From IMG/VR virus record IMGVR_UViG_3300027327_000001: a stretch of DNA of 64,000 nucleotides; one strand, 5' to 3'. Within the stretch, counting starts at the first letter, position 1, and each line of letters starts with the position of its first letter. This DNA comes from a virus. This document shows positions 13,963 to 17,026 of the stretch, piece after piece. A program made the position numbers and the translations under genes. Below the pieces are notes generated by a model. That model worked only from the letters and a program-made list of their open reading frames with translations, was not told the DNA's origin and ran no database searches.

Positions 13963-13976
13963 GTCGGCCTCTCTAT

Positions 13977-14124
13977 GGATGGCGCCAGCCGTTCTAAAAT
14001 TTTCAAGTAGGATGGCGCCAGCCGTTCTAAAAATTAGGATGGGCGCAGCCAGTCTAAAAATTTTTTAAGGATGGCGCCAGCCGTTCTAAAAATTCTGATA
14101 GGGATGGCGCCAGCCGTTCTAAAA
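13977..14124. repeat. array of five 23-bp direct repeats GGATGGCGCCAGCCGTTCTAAAA (iteron-like)
   Basis: Copies start at 13977, 14010, 14037 (degenerate), 14069 and 14102. The period is 27-33 bp, with AT-rich spacers of 4-10 bp. Each copy contains the palindrome TGGCGCCA. Confidence 0.9.
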
Positions 14125-14143
14125 TTTCGGGAACGCTGGTTTT

Positions 14144-14218
14144 TGGCTCCGGCGGCAGGTCTCGAACCTGCGACCGATTGATTAACAGTCAATTGCTCTA
14201 CCGCTGAGCTACGCCGGA
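14144..14218 (-). tRNA. tRNA-Asn (anticodon GUU), CCA encoded
   Basis: Hand fold: acceptor UCCGGCG/CGCCGGA, D arm GCUC-AGCGGUA-GAGC, anticodon arm AUUGA-CUGUUAA-UCAAU, variable CGGUC, T arm GCAGG-UUCGAGA-CCUGC, discriminator G, CCA. Confidence 0.9.
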
Positions 14219-14260
14219 ACGAAAGCGAGTCTAGCTTGGGATTTGTCTTGTGTAAATTAT

Positions 14261-14283
14261 GGATGGCGCCAGCCGTTCTAAAA
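14261..14283. repeat. sixth copy of the 23-bp repeat, on the other side of the tRNA
   Basis: A perfect GGATGGCGCCAGCCGTTCTAAAA that overlaps the TAG stop of the C5 MTase gene. Confidence 0.9.
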
Positions 14284-15690
14284 TTTTTGGGCCGGCGGCG
14301 CATCCTCATCTTTTTTTTGCGCAATAGGAATTCCATGCTTGCTCCAAACTTCATCCATGAGCTTGATTCGATGGCCGAGCCAGTTCATGCAATTTACGGC
14401 CATCGAGTTGCCGAGAATCGCGTAGCGCCTGGTCTTGGGCATTGGCTTGCCGCGGTGCTCGACAAGCGTGTAGTTGTCGGGGAATCCGAAAAGCCGCTCG
14501 ACTTCAAGAGGCGTGAGCTTGCGGACAACGTAACCGTCCGTGATGGCGATATAGCCTTGGCCGGGAGCTCCGCCGGGCTTGTTGATTGACGGCGTTATCT
14601 CGCCGTCGCCACCGGCAAGCCGCACGTGTCCCTGCTGGTTCTGCGCGAACGCCACGGCCTGCGGCGGATTGCCCGTGTCGATGGTTCCACTAACGCCCTC
14701 CCACGCGCCGAAGCTCGATTGCCTTGCCTGGAATGCGACTGCCTGAGGATGCCCGGTTTGACACGTGTAAGCGGCTTCGTCTTCGCGCCAGCCATTGCCG
14801 TTCGGAGAGGATTTGGGATTGGTTCTATCCGCCTTTTCATGGATGGCGACGACCTTCTGCACGATTAGGTGACCTTCCCGCCCTCTCTTGTCCGCCTTCA
14901 TATGTCCCACAATTGCGGGGGAAACGGGTTGGCATGCAGTTTCTTGGCACTCGTCTTCTGCCGGACCGCCGCCGCCTTTCGCCGACTGCGCCGTGACCGC
15001 TTCGCAGACTCCAGGCTCTGCGACTCCGTCGCCCGCTTCAAGCCCGCTATTTTCCTCAGAACCGTATCCAAGAAACCCGGCAGTTTCCTGCCTTCTTTTT
15101 CTGCGCGGTGGATGATGCCTCTGCATGCTCTCCCGCTCAAATAATACTCCCGCAGGTGCTCGCCAGTCACTTCCAAGACATCCAACAACGAAGACACGCC
15201 GTCGCTGCTGGGGGACGGCACGAGGGTGTGATTGAACTCGGATATATTGAGAGTCGAAGATTCTGTAGCTGAGACTATACCCGCATTTAACCATCGCCCC
15301 GAGGATGGTTCCAAACGCCCGTCCTCCGTCCATTGACAGGAGTCCGGGGACATTTTCCCACAAAAACCATCTTGGTTGTAGTCGAGAAAGAATTTCCACA
15401 TAGGTGAGTGATAGGTTGCCACGCGGGTCATCCAGGCCACCGCGTCCTCCTGCGATGGAGTAGGACTGGCAGGGGGTTCCTCCAACAAGAACGTCAATTG
15501 ATTTTCGGTCATCCGACAGCCTTTCTAAAAGAGTAGTCATGTCGCCGTAGTTCGGGACGTCGGGATAGTAGTGATTTAGCAGCGAGCAGCAATGCGGATC
15601 CACTTCGGCAAAGAATTGCGGCTCCCAGCCAAGCGGTTCCCATGCGACGGTAGCTGCCTCTATCCCAGAGCAGACGGAGCCGTATTTCAT
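14278..15690 (-). CDS. dcm: DNA (cytosine-5) methyltransferase
   Basis: Motif I is GSVCSGIEA, motif IV GGTPCQSYS, motif VI WENVPGLLS and motif VIII PQQRRRVFVVG. Motif IX is RKLTPLEVERLFGFPDNYT and motif X RYAILGNSMAVN. Confidence 0.9.
   Translation of the reverse strand: MKYGSVCSGIEAATVAWEPLGWEPQFFAEVDPHCCSLLNHYYPDVPNYGDMTTLLERLSDDRKSIDVLVGGTPCQSYSIAGGRGGLDDPRGNLSLTYVEILSRLQPRWFLWENVPGLLSMDGGRAFGTILGAMVKCGYSLSYRIFDSQYIRVQSHPRAVPQQRRRVFVVGCLGSDWRAPAGVLFERESMQRHHPPRRKRRQETAGFLGYGSEENSGLEAGDGVAEPGVCEAVTAQSAKGGGGPAEDECQETACQPVSPAIVGHMKADKRGREGHLIVQKVVAIHEKADRTNPKSSPNGNGWREDEAAYTCQTGHPQAVAFQARQSSFGAWEGVSGTIDTGNPPQAVAFAQNQQGHVRLAGGDGEITPSINKPGGAPGQGYIAITDGYVVRKLTPLEVERLFGFPDNYTLVEHRGKPMPKTRRYAILGNSMAVNCMNWLGHRIKLMDEVWSKHGIPIAQKKDEDAPPAQKF
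14898..15512 (-). CDS. nested alternative-frame ORF (204 codons) inside the C5 MTase gene; coding status uncertain
   Basis: This same-strand ORF overlaps MTase motifs IV-VIII. Its translation is protein-like (…CQWTEDGRLEPSSGRWLNAG…TLNISEF…SSLLDVLEVTGEHLREYYLSGRACRGIIHRAEKEGRKLP…). See findings. Confidence 0.3.
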   Translation of the reverse strand: MTENQLTFLLEEPPASPTPSQEDAVAWMTRVATYHSPMWKFFLDYNQDGFCGKMSPDSCQWTEDGRLEPSSGRWLNAGIVSATESSTLNISEFNHTLVPSPSSDGVSSLLDVLEVTGEHLREYYLSGRACRGIIHRAEKEGRKLPGFLDTVLRKIAGLKRATESQSLESAKRSRRSRRKAAAVRQKTSAKKLHANPFPPQLWDI

Positions 15691-15962
15691 TTAAATTGCT
15701 TTTCTTTCGCGCTGGCGGCGATGGCACTTCGGATTTTTCTCTTGATTTCGTTCAGAGTCGAGCCATTTTGACGCAATGCATGGGAAATATGATCGTCTTC
15801 GTAGTAAAAGCGATCTGGCCCGCTAATCCATCTTTCGGACCTGTCTTTGGGCTTACTGTTTTTCATGACAATTCCGATATGAACATTCAAGCCCGCATGT
15901 TTAAGATAAATCTGATGAACCGTGGCCGTAAAAAAATGGAATCTTATGCATGATTTTGGCAT
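15687..15962 (-). CDS. small protein, tandem paralog 5 of 5 (most diverged)
   Basis: 91 aa. It shares …H/P.G(I/Y)… and the C-terminal L.EIKRKIRSAI with its neighbours. An ATGA overlap joins it to the MTase start. Confidence 0.6.
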   Translation of the reverse strand: MPKSCIRFHFFTATVHQIYLKHAGLNVHIGIVMKNSKPKDRSERWISGPDRFYYEDDHISHALRQNGSTLNEIKRKIRSAIAASAKEKQFK

Positions 15963-16228
15963 TACTGAGCTCCCTTCTCCTTCATGCTCGCGCCGACCTG
16001 CATTCTGATCTCGAATTTGAGATCATTCAAATTCCAATGCTGGTCGAAGAGGACAGAAGGATCGAAATATGGCGACAAATGTTCCGTTGGACGGCTTTTC
16101 CAACCGGTGAATGTCTTCTCGATTAATCCTATTGGAACGTCCAAGCCGCGCTCGCGCATGTAAATACGCCAATTGCCGGAAGCCGCTTCGCGCTTGAATT
16201 CTATTGTTCTTTTCGGATGAATCGACAT
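15962..16228 (-). CDS. small protein, tandem paralog 4 of 5
   Basis: 88 aa: …VPIGLIEKTFTGWKSRP…LNDLKFEIRMQV…. Confidence 0.65.
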   Translation of the reverse strand: MSIHPKRTIEFKREAASGNWRIYMRERGLDVPIGLIEKTFTGWKSRPTEHLSPYFDPSVLFDQHWNLNDLKFEIRMQVGASMKEKGAQ

Positions 16229-16229
16229 G

Positions 16230-16496
16230 CTACTTTCCCGTCTCCTTCAGGGTTTCTAGGATCGCCGCCTTAACCTTGCGCTTCAATTCCGGCAGGGTTT
16301 TGGCCTCCTGGAAAATAACGTCAGCGTCGAAAAACTCCGATTTCGTTATTATAGAAGTGCTGCTCCATCCGCCTCCCCATTGCTTAATGCAATAGCCGAC
16401 AGGCATGAGCATGCCGCCCTCGTCTACGAGAATAGATTCAACGCCTAATTCGCCCATAGTCTCGAAGGTGACTCTTTTCTTGGGATTCTTGGACAT
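16230..16496 (-). CDS. small protein, tandem paralog 3 of 5
   Basis: 88 aa: …MPVGYCIKQWGGGWSS…LPELKRKVKAAILE…. Confidence 0.65.
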   Translation of the reverse strand: MSKNPKKRVTFETMGELGVESILVDEGGMLMPVGYCIKQWGGGWSSTSIITKSEFFDADVIFQEAKTLPELKRKVKAAILETLKETGK

Positions 16497-16497
16497 G

Positions 16498-16758
16498 CTA
16501 GTTTCCTTTCTGTTTCATGCTGTCCGCGATCGTGGCTCTGACTTTGCGCTTGAGTCCGTTCAGTGTGCGGTCGTAAAGGAAAAGATCTCGATAGTCGTAA
16601 AGCTCTGACGTTTCTGTCGGCCTGCTGCTCCATCCGCCTCCCCAATCTCGACTGCAGAAGCCGACCGGAATCATCATGTCGCCATCACGCAGTAAAATAT
16701 CGTGAACACTTAACTGTTGGAATTCGAATACGACTTTCAATTTGCGGCGCACGGCCAT
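16498..16758 (-). CDS. small protein, tandem paralog 2 of 5
   Basis: 86 aa: …IPVGFCSRDWGGGWSS…LNGLKRKVRATIAD…. Confidence 0.65.
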   Translation of the reverse strand: MAVRRKLKVVFEFQQLSVHDILLRDGDMMIPVGFCSRDWGGGWSSRPTETSELYDYRDLFLYDRTLNGLKRKVRATIADSMKQKGN

Positions 16759-16759
16759 G

Positions 16760-17026
16760 CTAAGCTCCTCTGTTCGTCATCAAGCCTTGCGCGATCGCTT
16801 CTCGGACCTTGCGCTTGAGTCCGTTCAGAGTCCGGTCATGACAGTAAAGCACCTTATAGTTTTGAAACTTTACATTTTTTATCGGCTCGCTTCGCCATCC
16901 TCTCCAATCACGACAGCAATAACCTACCGGCCAACTCATTTCACCGTCGTCGATGAAAATTTCGTAAGTGCGGGACACTACTGCGTCCCGCTTGAATACA
17001 ACTTTCGTTTTGCGGCTTGCGGCCAT
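16760..17026 (-). CDS. small protein, tandem paralog 1 of 5
   Basis: 88 aa: …WPVGYCCRDWRGWRSE…LNGLKRKVREAIAQ…. Confidence 0.65.
   Translation of the reverse strand: MAASRKTKVVFKRDAVVSRTYEIFIDDGEMSWPVGYCCRDWRGWRSEPIKNVKFQNYKVLYCHDRTLNGLKRKVREAIAQGLMTNRGA

What the first reader, a model, noticed from the sequence alone, without database searches (positions are those of the whole stretch)
14898..15512. A 204-codon same-strand ORF is nested in another frame inside the C5 methyltransferase gene, and both frames look protein-like
**What the two frames encode**
- I translated both frames by hand.
- Frame A carries the unmistakable MTase motifs IV, VI and VIII: GGTPCQSYS, WENVPGLLS and PQQRRRVFVVG.
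- The overlapping frame begins with an ATG at 15512. It reads MTENQLTFLLEEPPASPTPSQEDAVAWMTRVA…GFCGKMSPDSCQWTEDGRLEPSSGRWLNAGIVSATESSTLNISEFNHTL…DGVSSLLDVLEVTGEHLREYYLSGRACRGIIHRAEKEGRKLPGFL….

**Why it stands out**
- The second translation is not low-complexity.
- It closely resembles a pattern I recall from proteins annotated in prophage or ICE methylase neighbourhoods. That pattern reads …TSP.SC…EDG.L.PSSG.W.NSG…TLN.SEW…CSLSDILE.G.VP.RY(F/Y)LS..AC.GILRRAEKRGK.LP. I cannot verify the recollection here.
- A same-strand alternative-frame ORF this long is unexpected. It suggests either a genuine overprinted gene or a recurrent shadow frame of this MTase family that may have been mis-annotated elsewhere.
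Basis: partly seen in the sequence, partly recalled or inferred. Interest (0 to 1): 0.65.

Follow-up and report, generated by a model that had tools for sequence, protein, structure and literature searches.

The report
Conserved hidden gene inside phage methyltransferase
The second reading frame inside this phage DNA cytosine methyltransferase gene is a real, evolutionarily conserved protein-coding gene that recurs in thousands of related phage and prophage methyltransferase genes, including dmt of phage P1, yet is not annotated as nested in any of the nine annotated phage and plasmid records I inspected, and its function is unknown.

Summary
ORF-B (14898-15512, minus strand, 204 aa) lies in the +1 frame inside a complete C5 DNA methyltransferase gene (ORF-A, 14278-15690).

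It is not a chance shadow frame:
- **Stops.** Across 24 divergent MTase homologs chosen by frame A only (GC 39-67%), the +1 frame has 0 stops where synonymous-codon shuffling predicts 79.6. The +2 frame has 140 against 125.5 expected.
- **Third positions.** Identity at frame-A third codon positions rises from about 0.35-0.40 outside the overlap to 0.55-0.72 inside.
- **B versus A.** Over A codons 180-232, frame B is more conserved than frame A (0.48 vs 0.33).
- **Replacements.** Frame-B amino-acid replacements are conservative.
- **Composition.** The GC3 signal of frame A is lost inside the overlap.

An exhaustive profile search finds 5365 cluster representatives of B. All 77 examined genome copies are nested in MTase genes. 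Cultured phages carry it too (P1, Omega, DMCA, CRP-821).

The conserved core is a roughly 70-aa C-terminal module (15042-15254). Its last part is confidently predicted as a two-helix hairpin with no known structural or family match.

Function is unknown. My best guess, which is inferred, is a separately translated small protein acting with the MTase. M.EcoHK31I is a partial precedent.

The parts
14278..15690 (-). ORF-A: complete C5 cytosine DNA methyltransferase, 470 aa, the host gene of the overlap.
   Evidence: Pfam PF00145 matches at 2.8e-45, phrog_116 at 1e-77 and TIGR00675 at 1.6e-45. Motifs I, IV, VI, VIII, IX and X were located.
14898..15512 (-). ORF-B: 204-codon ORF in the +1 frame of ORF-A, stop codon included. 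Predicted protein 22.9 kDa, pI 8.8.
   Evidence: ORF and translation. Homologs were found.
15510..15512 (-). ATG start codon of ORF-B. It is formed by A codons GAT-GAC (Asp-Asp).
   Evidence: An ATG lies 45-63 codons upstream of the ENV motif in most divergent homologs, just before the QLTF..EEPPAS motif. A T-to-C change at 15511 (minus strand) removes it and is synonymous in A.
15520..15525 (-). Weak Shine-Dalgarno-like GAAAGG, 7 nt upstream of the B start.
   Evidence: Read from the sequence. Similar purine-rich elements occur upstream in some homologs (L001, L007, L013, L021, L056, L058) but not in all, so this is only suggestive.
15255..15512 (-). N-terminal half of B (residues 1-86, acidic, pI 4.3). 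Its sequence is largely dictated by MTase motifs IV and VI, so it is only weakly constrained in its own right.
   Evidence: LLEEPPAS is the +1 reading of LVGGTPCQS, and GKMSPDSC is the +1 reading of WENVPGLL (sequence). Identity at A third positions is only 0.40-0.50 here, and the replacement test gives z=6.9.
15042..15254 (-). Conserved C-terminal module of B (residues 87-157): TLNISEF...VSSLLDVLE...EYYLSGRACRGIIHRAEKEGRKLPGFLDTVLRKIAG. It overlaps MTase motif VIII and the variable linker that follows it.
   Evidence: Frame B is more conserved than frame A here, 0.48 vs 0.33. Identity at A third positions is 0.55-0.72 and the least conserved position is A position 1, which is B position 3. 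The conservative-replacement test gives z=19.7. AlphaFold2 pLDDT is 87-97 for residues 121-160. This is the only part retained in the P1, Vibrio and Morganella phage MTases.
14898..15041 (-). Lineage-specific Arg/Lys-rich tail of B (residues 158-204, pI 11.9) plus the stop codon.
   Evidence: It is shared only with L153/P0002, which has the same FPPQLWDI* ending. All codon positions diverge at about 0.31-0.36. Other B proteins end near residue 160.
15181..15213 (-). MTase motif VIII (PQQRRRVFVVG) in frame A. The same bases read SSDGVSSLLD in frame B.
   Evidence: In relatives, the B sequence VCSLSD requires the A wobble bases cgT gtG ttC gtT gtC ggA even in phages with 66% GC (derived from the sequence).
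15076..15147 (-). Frame-A linker after motif VIII (VLFERESMQRHHPPRRKRRQETAG). It is poorly conserved in A and overlaps B's confidently predicted helices.
   Evidence: A identity is 0.22-0.24 over A codons 196-225, against 0.53-0.55 for B.

Best explanation
ORF-B is a genuine protein-coding gene overprinted in the +1 frame of a phage orphan C5 DNA methyltransferase gene.

**What is shown**
- The +1 frame is kept open across the MTase clade.
- It has a conserved start position in most lineages.
- It evolves under purifying selection at the amino-acid level. That selection is strongest on a roughly 70-residue C-terminal module whose last part forms a basic two-helix hairpin.
- Over that module, B's constraint overrides frame A's freedom at third codon positions.

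**What is inferred about how it works**
- B is translated from its own internal ATG (15512) on the MTase mRNA, giving a small protein of about 160 aa in most relatives and 204 aa here.
- I rate at about 0.4 the idea that it acts together with the MTase it is nested in, as an accessory or regulatory partner on the enzyme or its DNA substrate. Co-encoding would then guarantee co-inheritance and co-expression.

The confidence given below refers to B being a real, selected coding gene, not to its function.
For: **1. Openness.**
- 58 viral loci were retrieved with the frame-A protein only. Nearly all have the +1 frame stop-free from about -51..-60 to about +100..+126 codons around the ENV motif.
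- This includes loci at 39% GC, where the +2 frame is open for only 13 codons.
- Synonymous-codon shuffling on 24 divergent loci expects 79.6 +1 stops; 0 are observed (Fisher P=4.6e-19). The +2 frame expects 125.5 and has 140.

**2. Frame-B identity.** Amino-acid identity in the +1 frame is 0.405 against a null of 0.227 in the overlap (z=59). Outside the overlap the z values are 6 and 2.4. Over A codons 180-232, B is at 0.483 and A at 0.325.

**3. Codon-position pattern.**
- Identity at A third positions is 0.35-0.40 outside the overlap and 0.55-0.72 at A codons 136-225.
- In that stretch A position 1, which is B position 3, is the least conserved. That is the periodicity expected of frame B.

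**4. Replacements.** Non-identical +1 replacements are more conservative than the null: BLOSUM62 z=19.7, against 1.9 or less in the control regions.

**5. Closest relative, L153.** Divergence at A third positions is 0.37-0.38 outside the overlap, 0.197 at A codons 60-135 and 0.114 at A codons 136-225.

**6. Composition.** GC at A third positions is 0.78-0.93 outside the overlap and 0.53-0.68 inside in most of the high-GC phages examined. In a low-GC phage it is 0.15-0.22 outside and 0.28-0.39 inside.

**7. Independent replicate.** In six phages of the P1, Vibrio, Morganella, Pectobacterium and Enterobacter group, the +1 ORF is open in 6 of 6. Identity at A third positions is 0.57-0.76 only over the module.

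**8. Breadth.**
- The exhaustive profile search gives 5365 cluster representatives at 50% identity.
- The genome scan gives at least 475 loci in many bacterial phyla.

**9. Insertions.** Some B proteins carry an insertion with a conserved B-frame sequence (V.RR..W.WD...W.LKT). In L015, an MTase with an insert at the equivalent position, frame A reads a Gly/Ser/Glu-rich loop.

**10. Start codon.** An ATG lies at -45..-63 in most diverse loci. A conserved GTG lies at -23 in one subclade, and in L016 and L017 the ORF begins exactly there.

**For the link with the MTase.**
- All 77 module-bearing copies examined in genomes are nested in an MTase frame. No stand-alone B was seen.
- M.EcoHK31I is a precedent for a second chain encoded in another frame inside a C5 MTase gene (PMC2836561).
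Against: - There is no expression evidence of any kind.
- Shine-Dalgarno-like sequences upstream of the B start are inconsistent among homologs.
- B alone is not predicted as a compact fold (mean pLDDT 64.6, pTM 0.34). Only the last roughly 40 residues of the conserved part are confident.
- B has no match in Pfam, NCBIfam, PADLOC, PDB sequences or PDB folds.
- Against the partner idea: frame A already carries all ten-motif landmarks of a complete single-chain C5 MTase, so nothing is obviously missing for B to supply.
- Obligate nesting is also what one expects of any overprinted gene that has never been duplicated out, so it does not by itself show a shared function.
Confidence: 0.85

Rival explanations
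1. B is a real protein, but its function is independent of methylation. It could be an anti-defence factor, for instance against modification-dependent (type IV) restriction that C5 methylation would provoke, or a small DNA- or RNA-binding regulator of the phage early region. On this reading it is nested in the MTase gene only because it arose there.
For: - The module is basic and helical, and the window's copy has an extra Arg/Lys-rich tail of pI 11.9.
- Frame A is a complete MTase on its own.
- Phage orphan MTases are anti-restriction tools, and some are toxic when expressed artificially (review PMC12707154), so a companion function in the same conflict is plausible.
- In Hannaconda the module is retained even though a large insert interrupts the MTase reading frame after motif VIII.
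Against: - B has no hit in PADLOC and no fold match.
- No stand-alone copy was found among 77 genome loci, which is odd for a freely portable function.
- This rival is a reading of function only. It does not dispute that B is a gene.
Confidence: 0.35
2. The B frame is not read from its own start. Ribosomes or polymerases coming from frame A reach it by frameshifting or slippage, giving an MTase N-terminal half fused to the B C-terminal module, or B fused to the MTase C-terminal half.
For: - Natural chimeras of both kinds exist. P0002 and P0013 are A N-terminus plus B. P0022, P0098, P0214 and others are B plus motifs IX-X.
- In a gut-phage subclade, a poly-C tract lying between the B sequences LSDILE and SAYSLS varies among C6, C7, C8 and C9 across several metagenomes. 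That variation produces exactly these fusions.
- That subclade lacks an ATG for B.
Against: - Most lineages, the window included, have a conserved ATG and no homopolymer or slippery site at the junction.
- In the usual arrangement B is +1 relative to both halves of A, so a full-length product would need two shifts.
- L070's fusion arises from an out-of-frame deletion in the target-recognition region (TRD) and looks degenerate.
- The L153 chimera is a single 1-nt deletion.
Confidence: 0.08
3. The constraint on frame A's third positions comes from a non-coding element, such as an RNA structure, an internal promoter or a protein-binding DNA site, and not from a second protein.
For: Overlap-region conservation of third positions would in principle also follow from a nucleic-acid element. 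The +2 frame also exceeds its null in the overlap.
Against: - The pattern has three-base periodicity in frame B.
- Stop codons are depleted in the +1 frame specifically, not in +2.
- Amino-acid replacements in +1 are conservative, with z=19.7 against 7.8 for +2.
- The conservation holds from 39% to 67% GC.
- There is no Rfam match.
- Promoter and terminator scans are at chance level.
Confidence: 0.03
4. ORF-B is a chance shadow ORF, kept open only because the MTase protein sequence is conserved and gives few opportunities for +1 stops.
For: - In the window alone the shuffle test gives only P=0.041.
- Parts of B are direct +1 readings of MTase motifs IV, VI and VIII.
- Every homolog is itself nested in an MTase gene.
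Against: - The shuffle null keeps the A protein and its codon usage, and still predicts 79.6 stops where none is seen.
- B is more conserved than A over A codons 180-232.
- The window has 17 A-synonymous single-base changes that would stop B, and none is seen in the window.
- The GC3 signal of A is erased in the overlap.
Confidence: 0.02

Closest known systems
M.EcoHK31I alpha/beta C5 methyltransferase
   Same: [quoted passage not shown]
   Different: - The EcoHK31I beta chain supplies motif IX, which the alpha chain lacks. Here frame A has motifs IX and X itself.
- B has no detectable MTase similarity.
- From my own knowledge, beta lies in alpha's variable region. B overlaps the catalytic motifs IV-VIII.
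- B is a large family (5365 cluster representatives), not a single-enzyme curiosity.
Phage lambda Rz/Rz1 (own knowledge: Rz1 is embedded in the +1 frame of Rz, and the two products form one spanin complex)
   Same: A gene is wholly embedded in the +1 frame of another phage gene on the same strand. It is the textbook case in which the nested product acts with the host-gene product.
   Different: The proteins and function (lysis) are unrelated. Partnership between B and the MTase is only inferred here.
E. coli dcm-vsr overlap (own knowledge)
   Same: A C5 MTase gene overlaps a functionally linked second gene in another frame.
   Different: From my own knowledge, that overlap is only a few codons at the 3' end of dcm. 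B has no Pfam family match at all, so nothing links it to Vsr.
phrog_16143, labelled 'DNA methyltransferase'
   Same: 77 of 83 B-family proteins match it, with a best E-value of 7e-11. The family has therefore already been clustered from phage annotations.
   Different: - The window's own B matches only weakly (E=0.0048).
- The label appears to come from neighbourhood or mis-annotation. B has no MTase motifs and no PF00145 match.
Phase-variable methyltransferases with homopolymer tracts (phasevarions; own knowledge)
   Same: One gut-phage subclade carries a poly-C tract of 6 to 9 bases inside the overlap. Its length variants switch frames.
   Different: The tract is absent from the window. It has not been shown to vary within a population, and here it would toggle between two overlapping genes rather than simply switching one gene on and off.

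Membership tests
C5 cytosine DNA methyltransferase (PF00145) - frame A | Significant match to the family profile | tested here: met
   PF00145 at 2.8e-45, above the gathering score; TIGR00675 at 1.6e-45.
C5 cytosine DNA methyltransferase (PF00145) - frame A | Catalytic motifs IV (PCQ), VI (ENV) and VIII (QxRxR), plus motifs IX and X, all in one frame | tested here: met
   GGTPCQSYS, WENVPGLLS, PQQRRRVFVVG, RKLTPLEVERLFGFPDNYT and GNSMAVNCMNWLG were located.
Functional overlapping (overprinted) protein-coding gene - frame B | The ORF is kept open in divergent relatives beyond what the host protein and its codon usage allow | tested here: met
   0 stops against 79.6 expected in 24 loci. The +2 control has 140 against 125.5.
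Functional overlapping (overprinted) protein-coding gene - frame B | Suppressed synonymous variation of the host frame, confined to the overlap | tested here: met
   Identity at A third positions is 0.55-0.72 inside against 0.35-0.40 outside. Pairwise divergence is 0.11-0.20 inside against 0.37-0.38 outside. The P1 group replicates this.
Functional overlapping (overprinted) protein-coding gene - frame B | Selection at the amino-acid level in the second frame: periodicity and conservative replacements | tested here: met
   B position 3 is the least conserved position over A codons 180-232. The BLOSUM62 test gives z=19.7. B identity exceeds A identity.
Functional overlapping (overprinted) protein-coding gene - frame B | Conserved start codon and ribosome-binding site | tested here: inconclusive
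   An ATG is conserved at -45..-63 in most diverse loci and a GTG at -23 in one subclade. Shine-Dalgarno-like motifs are inconsistent.
Functional overlapping (overprinted) protein-coding gene - frame B | Direct evidence of translation (ribosome profiling or peptides) | not testable with these tools
   No expression data are available here. The literature searches found no report.
M.EcoHK31I-type two-chain C5 MTase | Second chain encoded in another frame inside the MTase gene | tested here: met
   B is nested in the +1 frame. The EcoHK31I architecture is described in PMC2836561.
M.EcoHK31I-type two-chain C5 MTase | The nested chain supplies a conserved MTase motif (IX) that the large chain lacks | tested here: not met
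   Frame A has motifs IX and X. B has no PF00145 match and no PDB MTase match.
M.EcoHK31I-type two-chain C5 MTase | Both chains are required for methylation | not testable with these tools
   This needs an enzymatic assay of recoded A with and without B.
Ribbon-helix-helix or C-protein-like small DNA-binding regulator | Fold match to ribbon-helix-helix or helix-turn-helix regulators | tested here: not met
The module-only model shows only helices. Foldseek against PDB gives nothing below E=2.
Known anti-phage defence or anti-defence families (PADLOC) | Profile match | tested here: not met
   0 of 11 B proteins match.

The most novel reading that the evidence does not exclude
A very large clade of phage and prophage 'orphan' C5 methyltransferase genes, including dmt of the model phage P1, are two genes in one. 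On this reading the nested +1 protein is an obligatory partner of the enzyme, setting its activity, timing or target range. In some gut phages a poly-C tract would then switch between three coding states: MTase plus B, MTase N-terminal half fused to the B module, and B fused to the MTase C-terminal half. That would make B one of the most widespread and ancient long same-strand overlapping genes known in dsDNA phages.
Probability: 0.3. Interest if true: 0.88.

Novelty: new variant of a known kind. Interest (0 to 1): 0.8.

Why it matters
- **Overlapping genes.** Long same-strand overlapping genes in dsDNA phages and bacteria are usually young, narrowly distributed and disputed. This one overlaps the catalytic core of a well-known enzyme. 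It is conserved from 39% to 67% GC, in phages of Proteobacteria, Actinobacteria, Cyanobacteria and gut bacteria, and in prophages of many phyla.
- **Annotation.** It changes how these loci should be annotated. Gene callers sometimes report B plus MTase fragments in place of the intact MTase. PHROGs labels the family 'DNA methyltransferase'.
- **Enzymology.** It raises the possibility that published work on cloned phage MTases unknowingly co-expressed a second protein.
- **Tractability.** The ORF is present in P1 dmt and in cultured phages such as Omega, DMCA and CRP-821. A-synonymous knock-outs and ribosome profiling can therefore test it directly.

Tried and rejected
- **Family and structure searches on B.** Pfam gave only a chance-level hit, and NCBIfam and PADLOC gave nothing. 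The PDB sequence-profile search gave nothing up to E=10.
- **AlphaFold2 plus Foldseek.** The whole-B model is poor (pLDDT 64.6). Foldseek found nothing for it or for the module-only model.
- **Non-coding explanations.** Rfam found no match, and the promoter and terminator scan was at chance level.
- **Fusions as evidence of partnership.** I considered the natural B::MTase-C-terminus fusions as 'Rosetta stone' evidence and downgraded them. L070's fusion comes from an out-of-frame deletion. L071 and L072 have their junction near a G8 run. Any indel in an overlap creates such chimeras.
- **Homology to the element after motif VIII.** From memory, canonical C5 MTases have an L.D.L...KYxLS element after motif VIII, and B's C-terminal module resembles it. 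No tool result supports homology, so it remains only a lead.
- **The W.N(S/A)G resemblance.** I looked at whether B's W.N(S/A)G motif is the same DNA as the in-frame GGWQNAG insert of L013 and L014, read in another frame. Nucleotide identity is only about 61% and is uninformative. B's motif is simply the +1 reading of A's L.ELGYGFA. The resemblance is unexplained.
- **Literature.** Searches for an already described nested gene in phage MTases or in P1 dmt found none.
- **Plasmids.** The plasmid search gave only two hits, both nested.
Full report
**1. The observation**

It lies inside ORF-A at 14278..15690, which is 470 aa. B begins 178 nt after A's start, so it is in the +1 frame.

Frame A is a complete C5 DNA methyltransferase. 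PF00145 matches at 2.8e-45, phrog_116 at 1e-77 and TIGR00675 at 1.6e-45. Motifs I, IV, VI, VIII, IX and X are all present in that frame.

The neighbours on the same strand are phage replication genes: helicase, primase and a DNA repair protein. The window is therefore phage or prophage DNA, and the MTase closes an early or replication operon.

**2. Frame B has homologs, and they are all nested too**

- A protein search with B found 12 relatives.
- Two of them were traced to their contigs (L001, L002). Each lies in the +1 frame of an intact full-length MTase ORF. The metagenome gene caller had reported B plus a C-terminal MTase fragment in place of the MTase.
- A profile of the family finds at least 976 proteins in the indexed search.
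- The exhaustive search gives 5365 cluster representatives at 50% identity with E <= 0.001, of which 3640 are at 1e-10 or better.
- A scan of one genome per bacterial species with the B profile found at least 475 loci. They fall in Acidobacteriota, Alpha-, Beta- and Gammaproteobacteria, Nitrospirota, Chloroflexota, Actinomycetota, Planctomycetota and others.
- In all 77 loci where I could locate the module, the frame one base upstream carries MTase motifs IV, VI and/or VIII. 61 of them have all of IV, VI, VIII, IX and X. I found no stand-alone B gene.

tblastn shows the same +1 ORF under annotated MTase CDSs of cultured phages:
- Roseobacter phage CRP-821
- Caulobacter phage DMCA
- Mycobacterium phage Omega and its relatives
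- Pseudanabaena phage Pan4 (hit under its MTase CDS; frame not checked)
- Morganella phage Mecenats66
- Vibrio phage PS10B.1
- coliphage P1, in dmt at NC_005856 66728-67195

None of the nine annotated phage and plasmid records I opened annotates B as a separate nested gene. That includes P1, which has 535 annotated features.

PHROGs does hold the family, as phrog_16143. 77 of 83 B proteins match it, but its label is 'DNA methyltransferase'.

**3. Is it a real gene or a shadow?**

The B homologs were found because they are open, so they cannot test openness. I therefore retrieved 58 viral loci with the frame-A protein alone.

*Openness.*
- In nearly all of them the +1 frame is stop-free from about 51-60 codons before the ENV motif to about 100-126 codons after it.
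- The +2 frame is short and irregular. At 39% GC (L008) the +1 frame is open for 162 codons and the +2 frame for 13.
- I shuffled synonymous codons within each gene. This keeps the MTase protein and its codon usage.
- Over 24 divergent loci the shuffles predict 79.6 +1 stops, and none is observed. Fisher's combined P is 4.6e-19, limited by the number of shuffles.
- The +2 frame has 140 stops against 125.5 expected.
- 42 of the 58 loci keep an intact B module. The other 16 are loci whose MTase frame is itself broken, contig ends, or the most distant homolog, L062.

*Frame-B conservation.*
- On a codon alignment of 22 divergent genes, +1-frame amino-acid identity in the overlap is 0.405 against a shuffle null of 0.227 (z=59).
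- Before the overlap z is 6, and in the motif IX-X region it is 2.4.
- Over A codons 180-232, B (0.483) is more conserved than A (0.325).

*Codon-position pattern.*
- Nucleotide identity at A's third codon position is 0.35-0.40 outside the overlap. It reaches 0.55-0.72 at A codons 136-225 and falls back to about 0.29 right after B's usual end.
- Over codons 180-232 the least conserved position is A position 1, which is B's third position.

*Replacements and composition.*
- Non-identical +1 residues are replaced conservatively: BLOSUM62 z=19.7 at A codons 136-225 and 6.9 at 60-135. Control regions give 1.9 or less, and the +2 frame gives 7.8 and 1.3.
- GC at A's third position is 0.78-0.93 outside the overlap and 0.53-0.68 inside in most of the high-GC phages examined. 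In a low-GC phage it is 0.15-0.22 outside and 0.28-0.39 inside.
- A's wobble position therefore behaves like a constrained second codon position. This also explains why gene callers prefer B.

*The window's closest relative.* Against L153, divergence at A third positions is 0.373 before the overlap and 0.379 after it. It is 0.197 at A codons 60-135 and 0.114 at 136-225.

*Independent replicate.* Six phages of the P1, Vibrio, Morganella, Pectobacterium and Enterobacter group show the same picture. The +1 ORF is open in 6 of 6, and identity at A third positions is 0.57-0.76 only over P1 dmt codons 181-260.

*Other checks.*
- In the window itself, 17 single-base changes that are synonymous in A would stop B.
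- No Rfam family matches the region, and the promoter and terminator scan is at chance level.

Together these results exclude a chance shadow ORF. They also make a non-coding constraint very unlikely.

**4. Anatomy of B**

- **N-terminal half** (residues 1-86, 15255-15512). This part is acidic and largely dictated by the MTase. LLEEPPAS is the +1 reading of motif IV (LVGGTPCQS), and GKMSPDSC is the +1 reading of motif VI (WENVPGLL). Its own constraint is weak but detectable.
- **Start codon.** Most diverse homologs have an ATG 45-63 codons before ENV, just ahead of the QLTF..EEPPAS motif. One gut-phage subclade has no ATG but a conserved GTG at -23, and in L016 and L017 the open frame begins exactly there. 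Shine-Dalgarno-like sequences are inconsistent.
- **Conserved core** (residues 87-157, 15042-15254): TLN.SE...(C/S)SLSDILE.G.VP.RYYLS.KAC.GILRRAEKRGK.LP..L..AL. It overlaps motif VIII and the poorly conserved linker that follows it in A.
- **Minimal form.** The core is all that is recognisably retained in the P1-like, Vibrio and Morganella genes. In most of those, a Met codon precedes it, in an ORF that stays open further upstream.
- **Predicted structure.** AlphaFold2 gives pLDDT 87-97 only for the last roughly 40 residues of the core, which form two helices. The whole protein scores 64.6 with pTM 0.34. Foldseek against PDB and a PDB sequence-profile search find nothing.
- **Insertions.** Some B proteins carry an insertion with a conserved B-frame sequence. 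In L015, an MTase with an insert at the equivalent position, frame A reads a Gly/Ser/Glu-rich loop.
- **Tail.** The window's B has an extra 47-residue Arg/Lys-rich tail (14901-15041, pI 11.9). Only L153 shares it, and it is evolving freely.

**5. How it most likely works**

Shown: B is a selected coding frame with a conserved start region, nested in a complete MTase gene.

Inferred: it is translated from its own internal start on the MTase mRNA. I give about 0.4 to the idea that it acts with the MTase as an accessory or regulatory partner.

The grounds for the partner idea:
- B is obligately nested (77 of 77).
- M.EcoHK31I is a precedent. Its beta chain is encoded in another frame inside the alpha gene (PMC2836561).
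- Natural fusions of B to the MTase C-terminal half exist. This last point is weak, because any indel in an overlap makes such chimeras and at least L070 looks degenerate.

The main rival on function, at about 0.35, is an independent role in the phage-host conflict or in regulation. A recoding route by frameshift or slippage gets about 0.08. It is prompted by the poly-C tract described in section 7.

**6. Comparison with known systems, and novelty**

- **M.EcoHK31I** is the closest known case. The defining feature, that the nested chain supplies a motif missing from the large chain, is not met here: A has motif IX, and B has no MTase similarity.
- **Rz/Rz1 of lambda and dcm-vsr** are architectural analogies recalled from my own knowledge.
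- **Literature.** I found no paper describing a nested gene in phage C5 MTases or in P1 dmt.

I rate it a new variant of a known kind. Overprinted genes and two-chain MTases are known. This protein family, its position over the catalytic core, and its breadth are not.

**7. Side observations**

- In a subclade of gut-phage MTases, a poly-C tract lies inside the overlap. C7 keeps both frames intact. C6, C8 and C9 variants occur in contigs from several metagenomes. They create an MTase N-terminal half fused to the B module, or the B N-terminus fused to the MTase C-terminal half. This could be phase variation or assembly error.
- The window also has five tandem paralogous small genes upstream of the MTase.
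- It has an array of roughly 24-nt direct repeats at and beyond the MTase 3' end.

**8. Verdict**

Function is unknown. Expression evidence and A-synonymous knock-outs, most easily made in P1, are the decisive missing steps.

Noticed in passing
L016-L061 (gut-phage MTase loci from viral contigs); tract about 24 nt after the B-frame codons for FLSDILE, e.g. L032, L042, L044: A poly-C tract lies inside the MTase/B overlap. C7 keeps both frames intact. C6 (4 loci), C8 (7 loci) and C9 (1 locus) occur in contigs from several different metagenomes. They swap frames, giving an MTase N-terminal half fused to the B C-terminal module, or the B N-terminus fused to the MTase C-terminal half. This looks like a phase-variable tract, but homopolymer assembly error is not excluded. 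The tract is absent from the window.
   Followed up: partly
window 15687-17026 (-): Five tandem paralogous small genes of 86-91 aa (24-36% identity, shared M..K..F...I...G..W.S...L..K pattern) sit directly upstream of the MTase. The stop of the last one overlaps the MTase ATG (TAAATG). I did not run family searches on them, and their function is unknown.
   Followed up: partly
window 13974-14322: There are at least six copies of a roughly 24-nt direct repeat, GGATGGCGCCAGCCGTTCTAAAA(A)TT, which contains a GGCGCC palindrome. They lie just downstream of the MTase gene, and one copy (14258-14285) overlaps its stop codon. They could be iterons or protein-binding sites.
   Followed up: partly
L013 and L014 (between MTase motifs VI and VIII); L066, L067, L069, L154: Some MTases carry an in-frame insert (GGWQNAGIVTG, or KWT.(A/S)GCV.G) that resembles the B-frame motif G.W.N(S/A)GMGSP. 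In exactly those loci the B frame lacks that motif. DNA comparison was uninformative, at about 61% identity. The resemblance could be coincidence, convergence or an old frame swap, and it is unexplained.
   Followed up: partly
L001 2608-3099; L002 2452-2943; Omega gp127/gp128 (L063): Metagenome gene callers often report B plus a C-terminal MTase fragment although the full MTase ORF is intact. In phage Omega the MTase is annotated as two CDSs in the same frame, separated by a stop, with B nested in the first. These are annotation artefacts, or possibly real splits, and are worth re-examining.
   Followed up: partly
L068 (Mycobacterium phage Hannaconda gene 107): The MTase reading frame carries an insert of roughly 250 aa after motif VIII. 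Only an 82-codon +1 ORF containing the B C-terminal module remains, and that module closely matches Omega's.
   Followed up: no
L153 (closest relative of the window), alignment column 295: A single 1-nt deletion fuses the MTase N-terminus to frame B, giving protein P0002. Frame B still runs to the same FPPQLWDI stop. It could be a pseudogene or an assembly error.
   Followed up: partly
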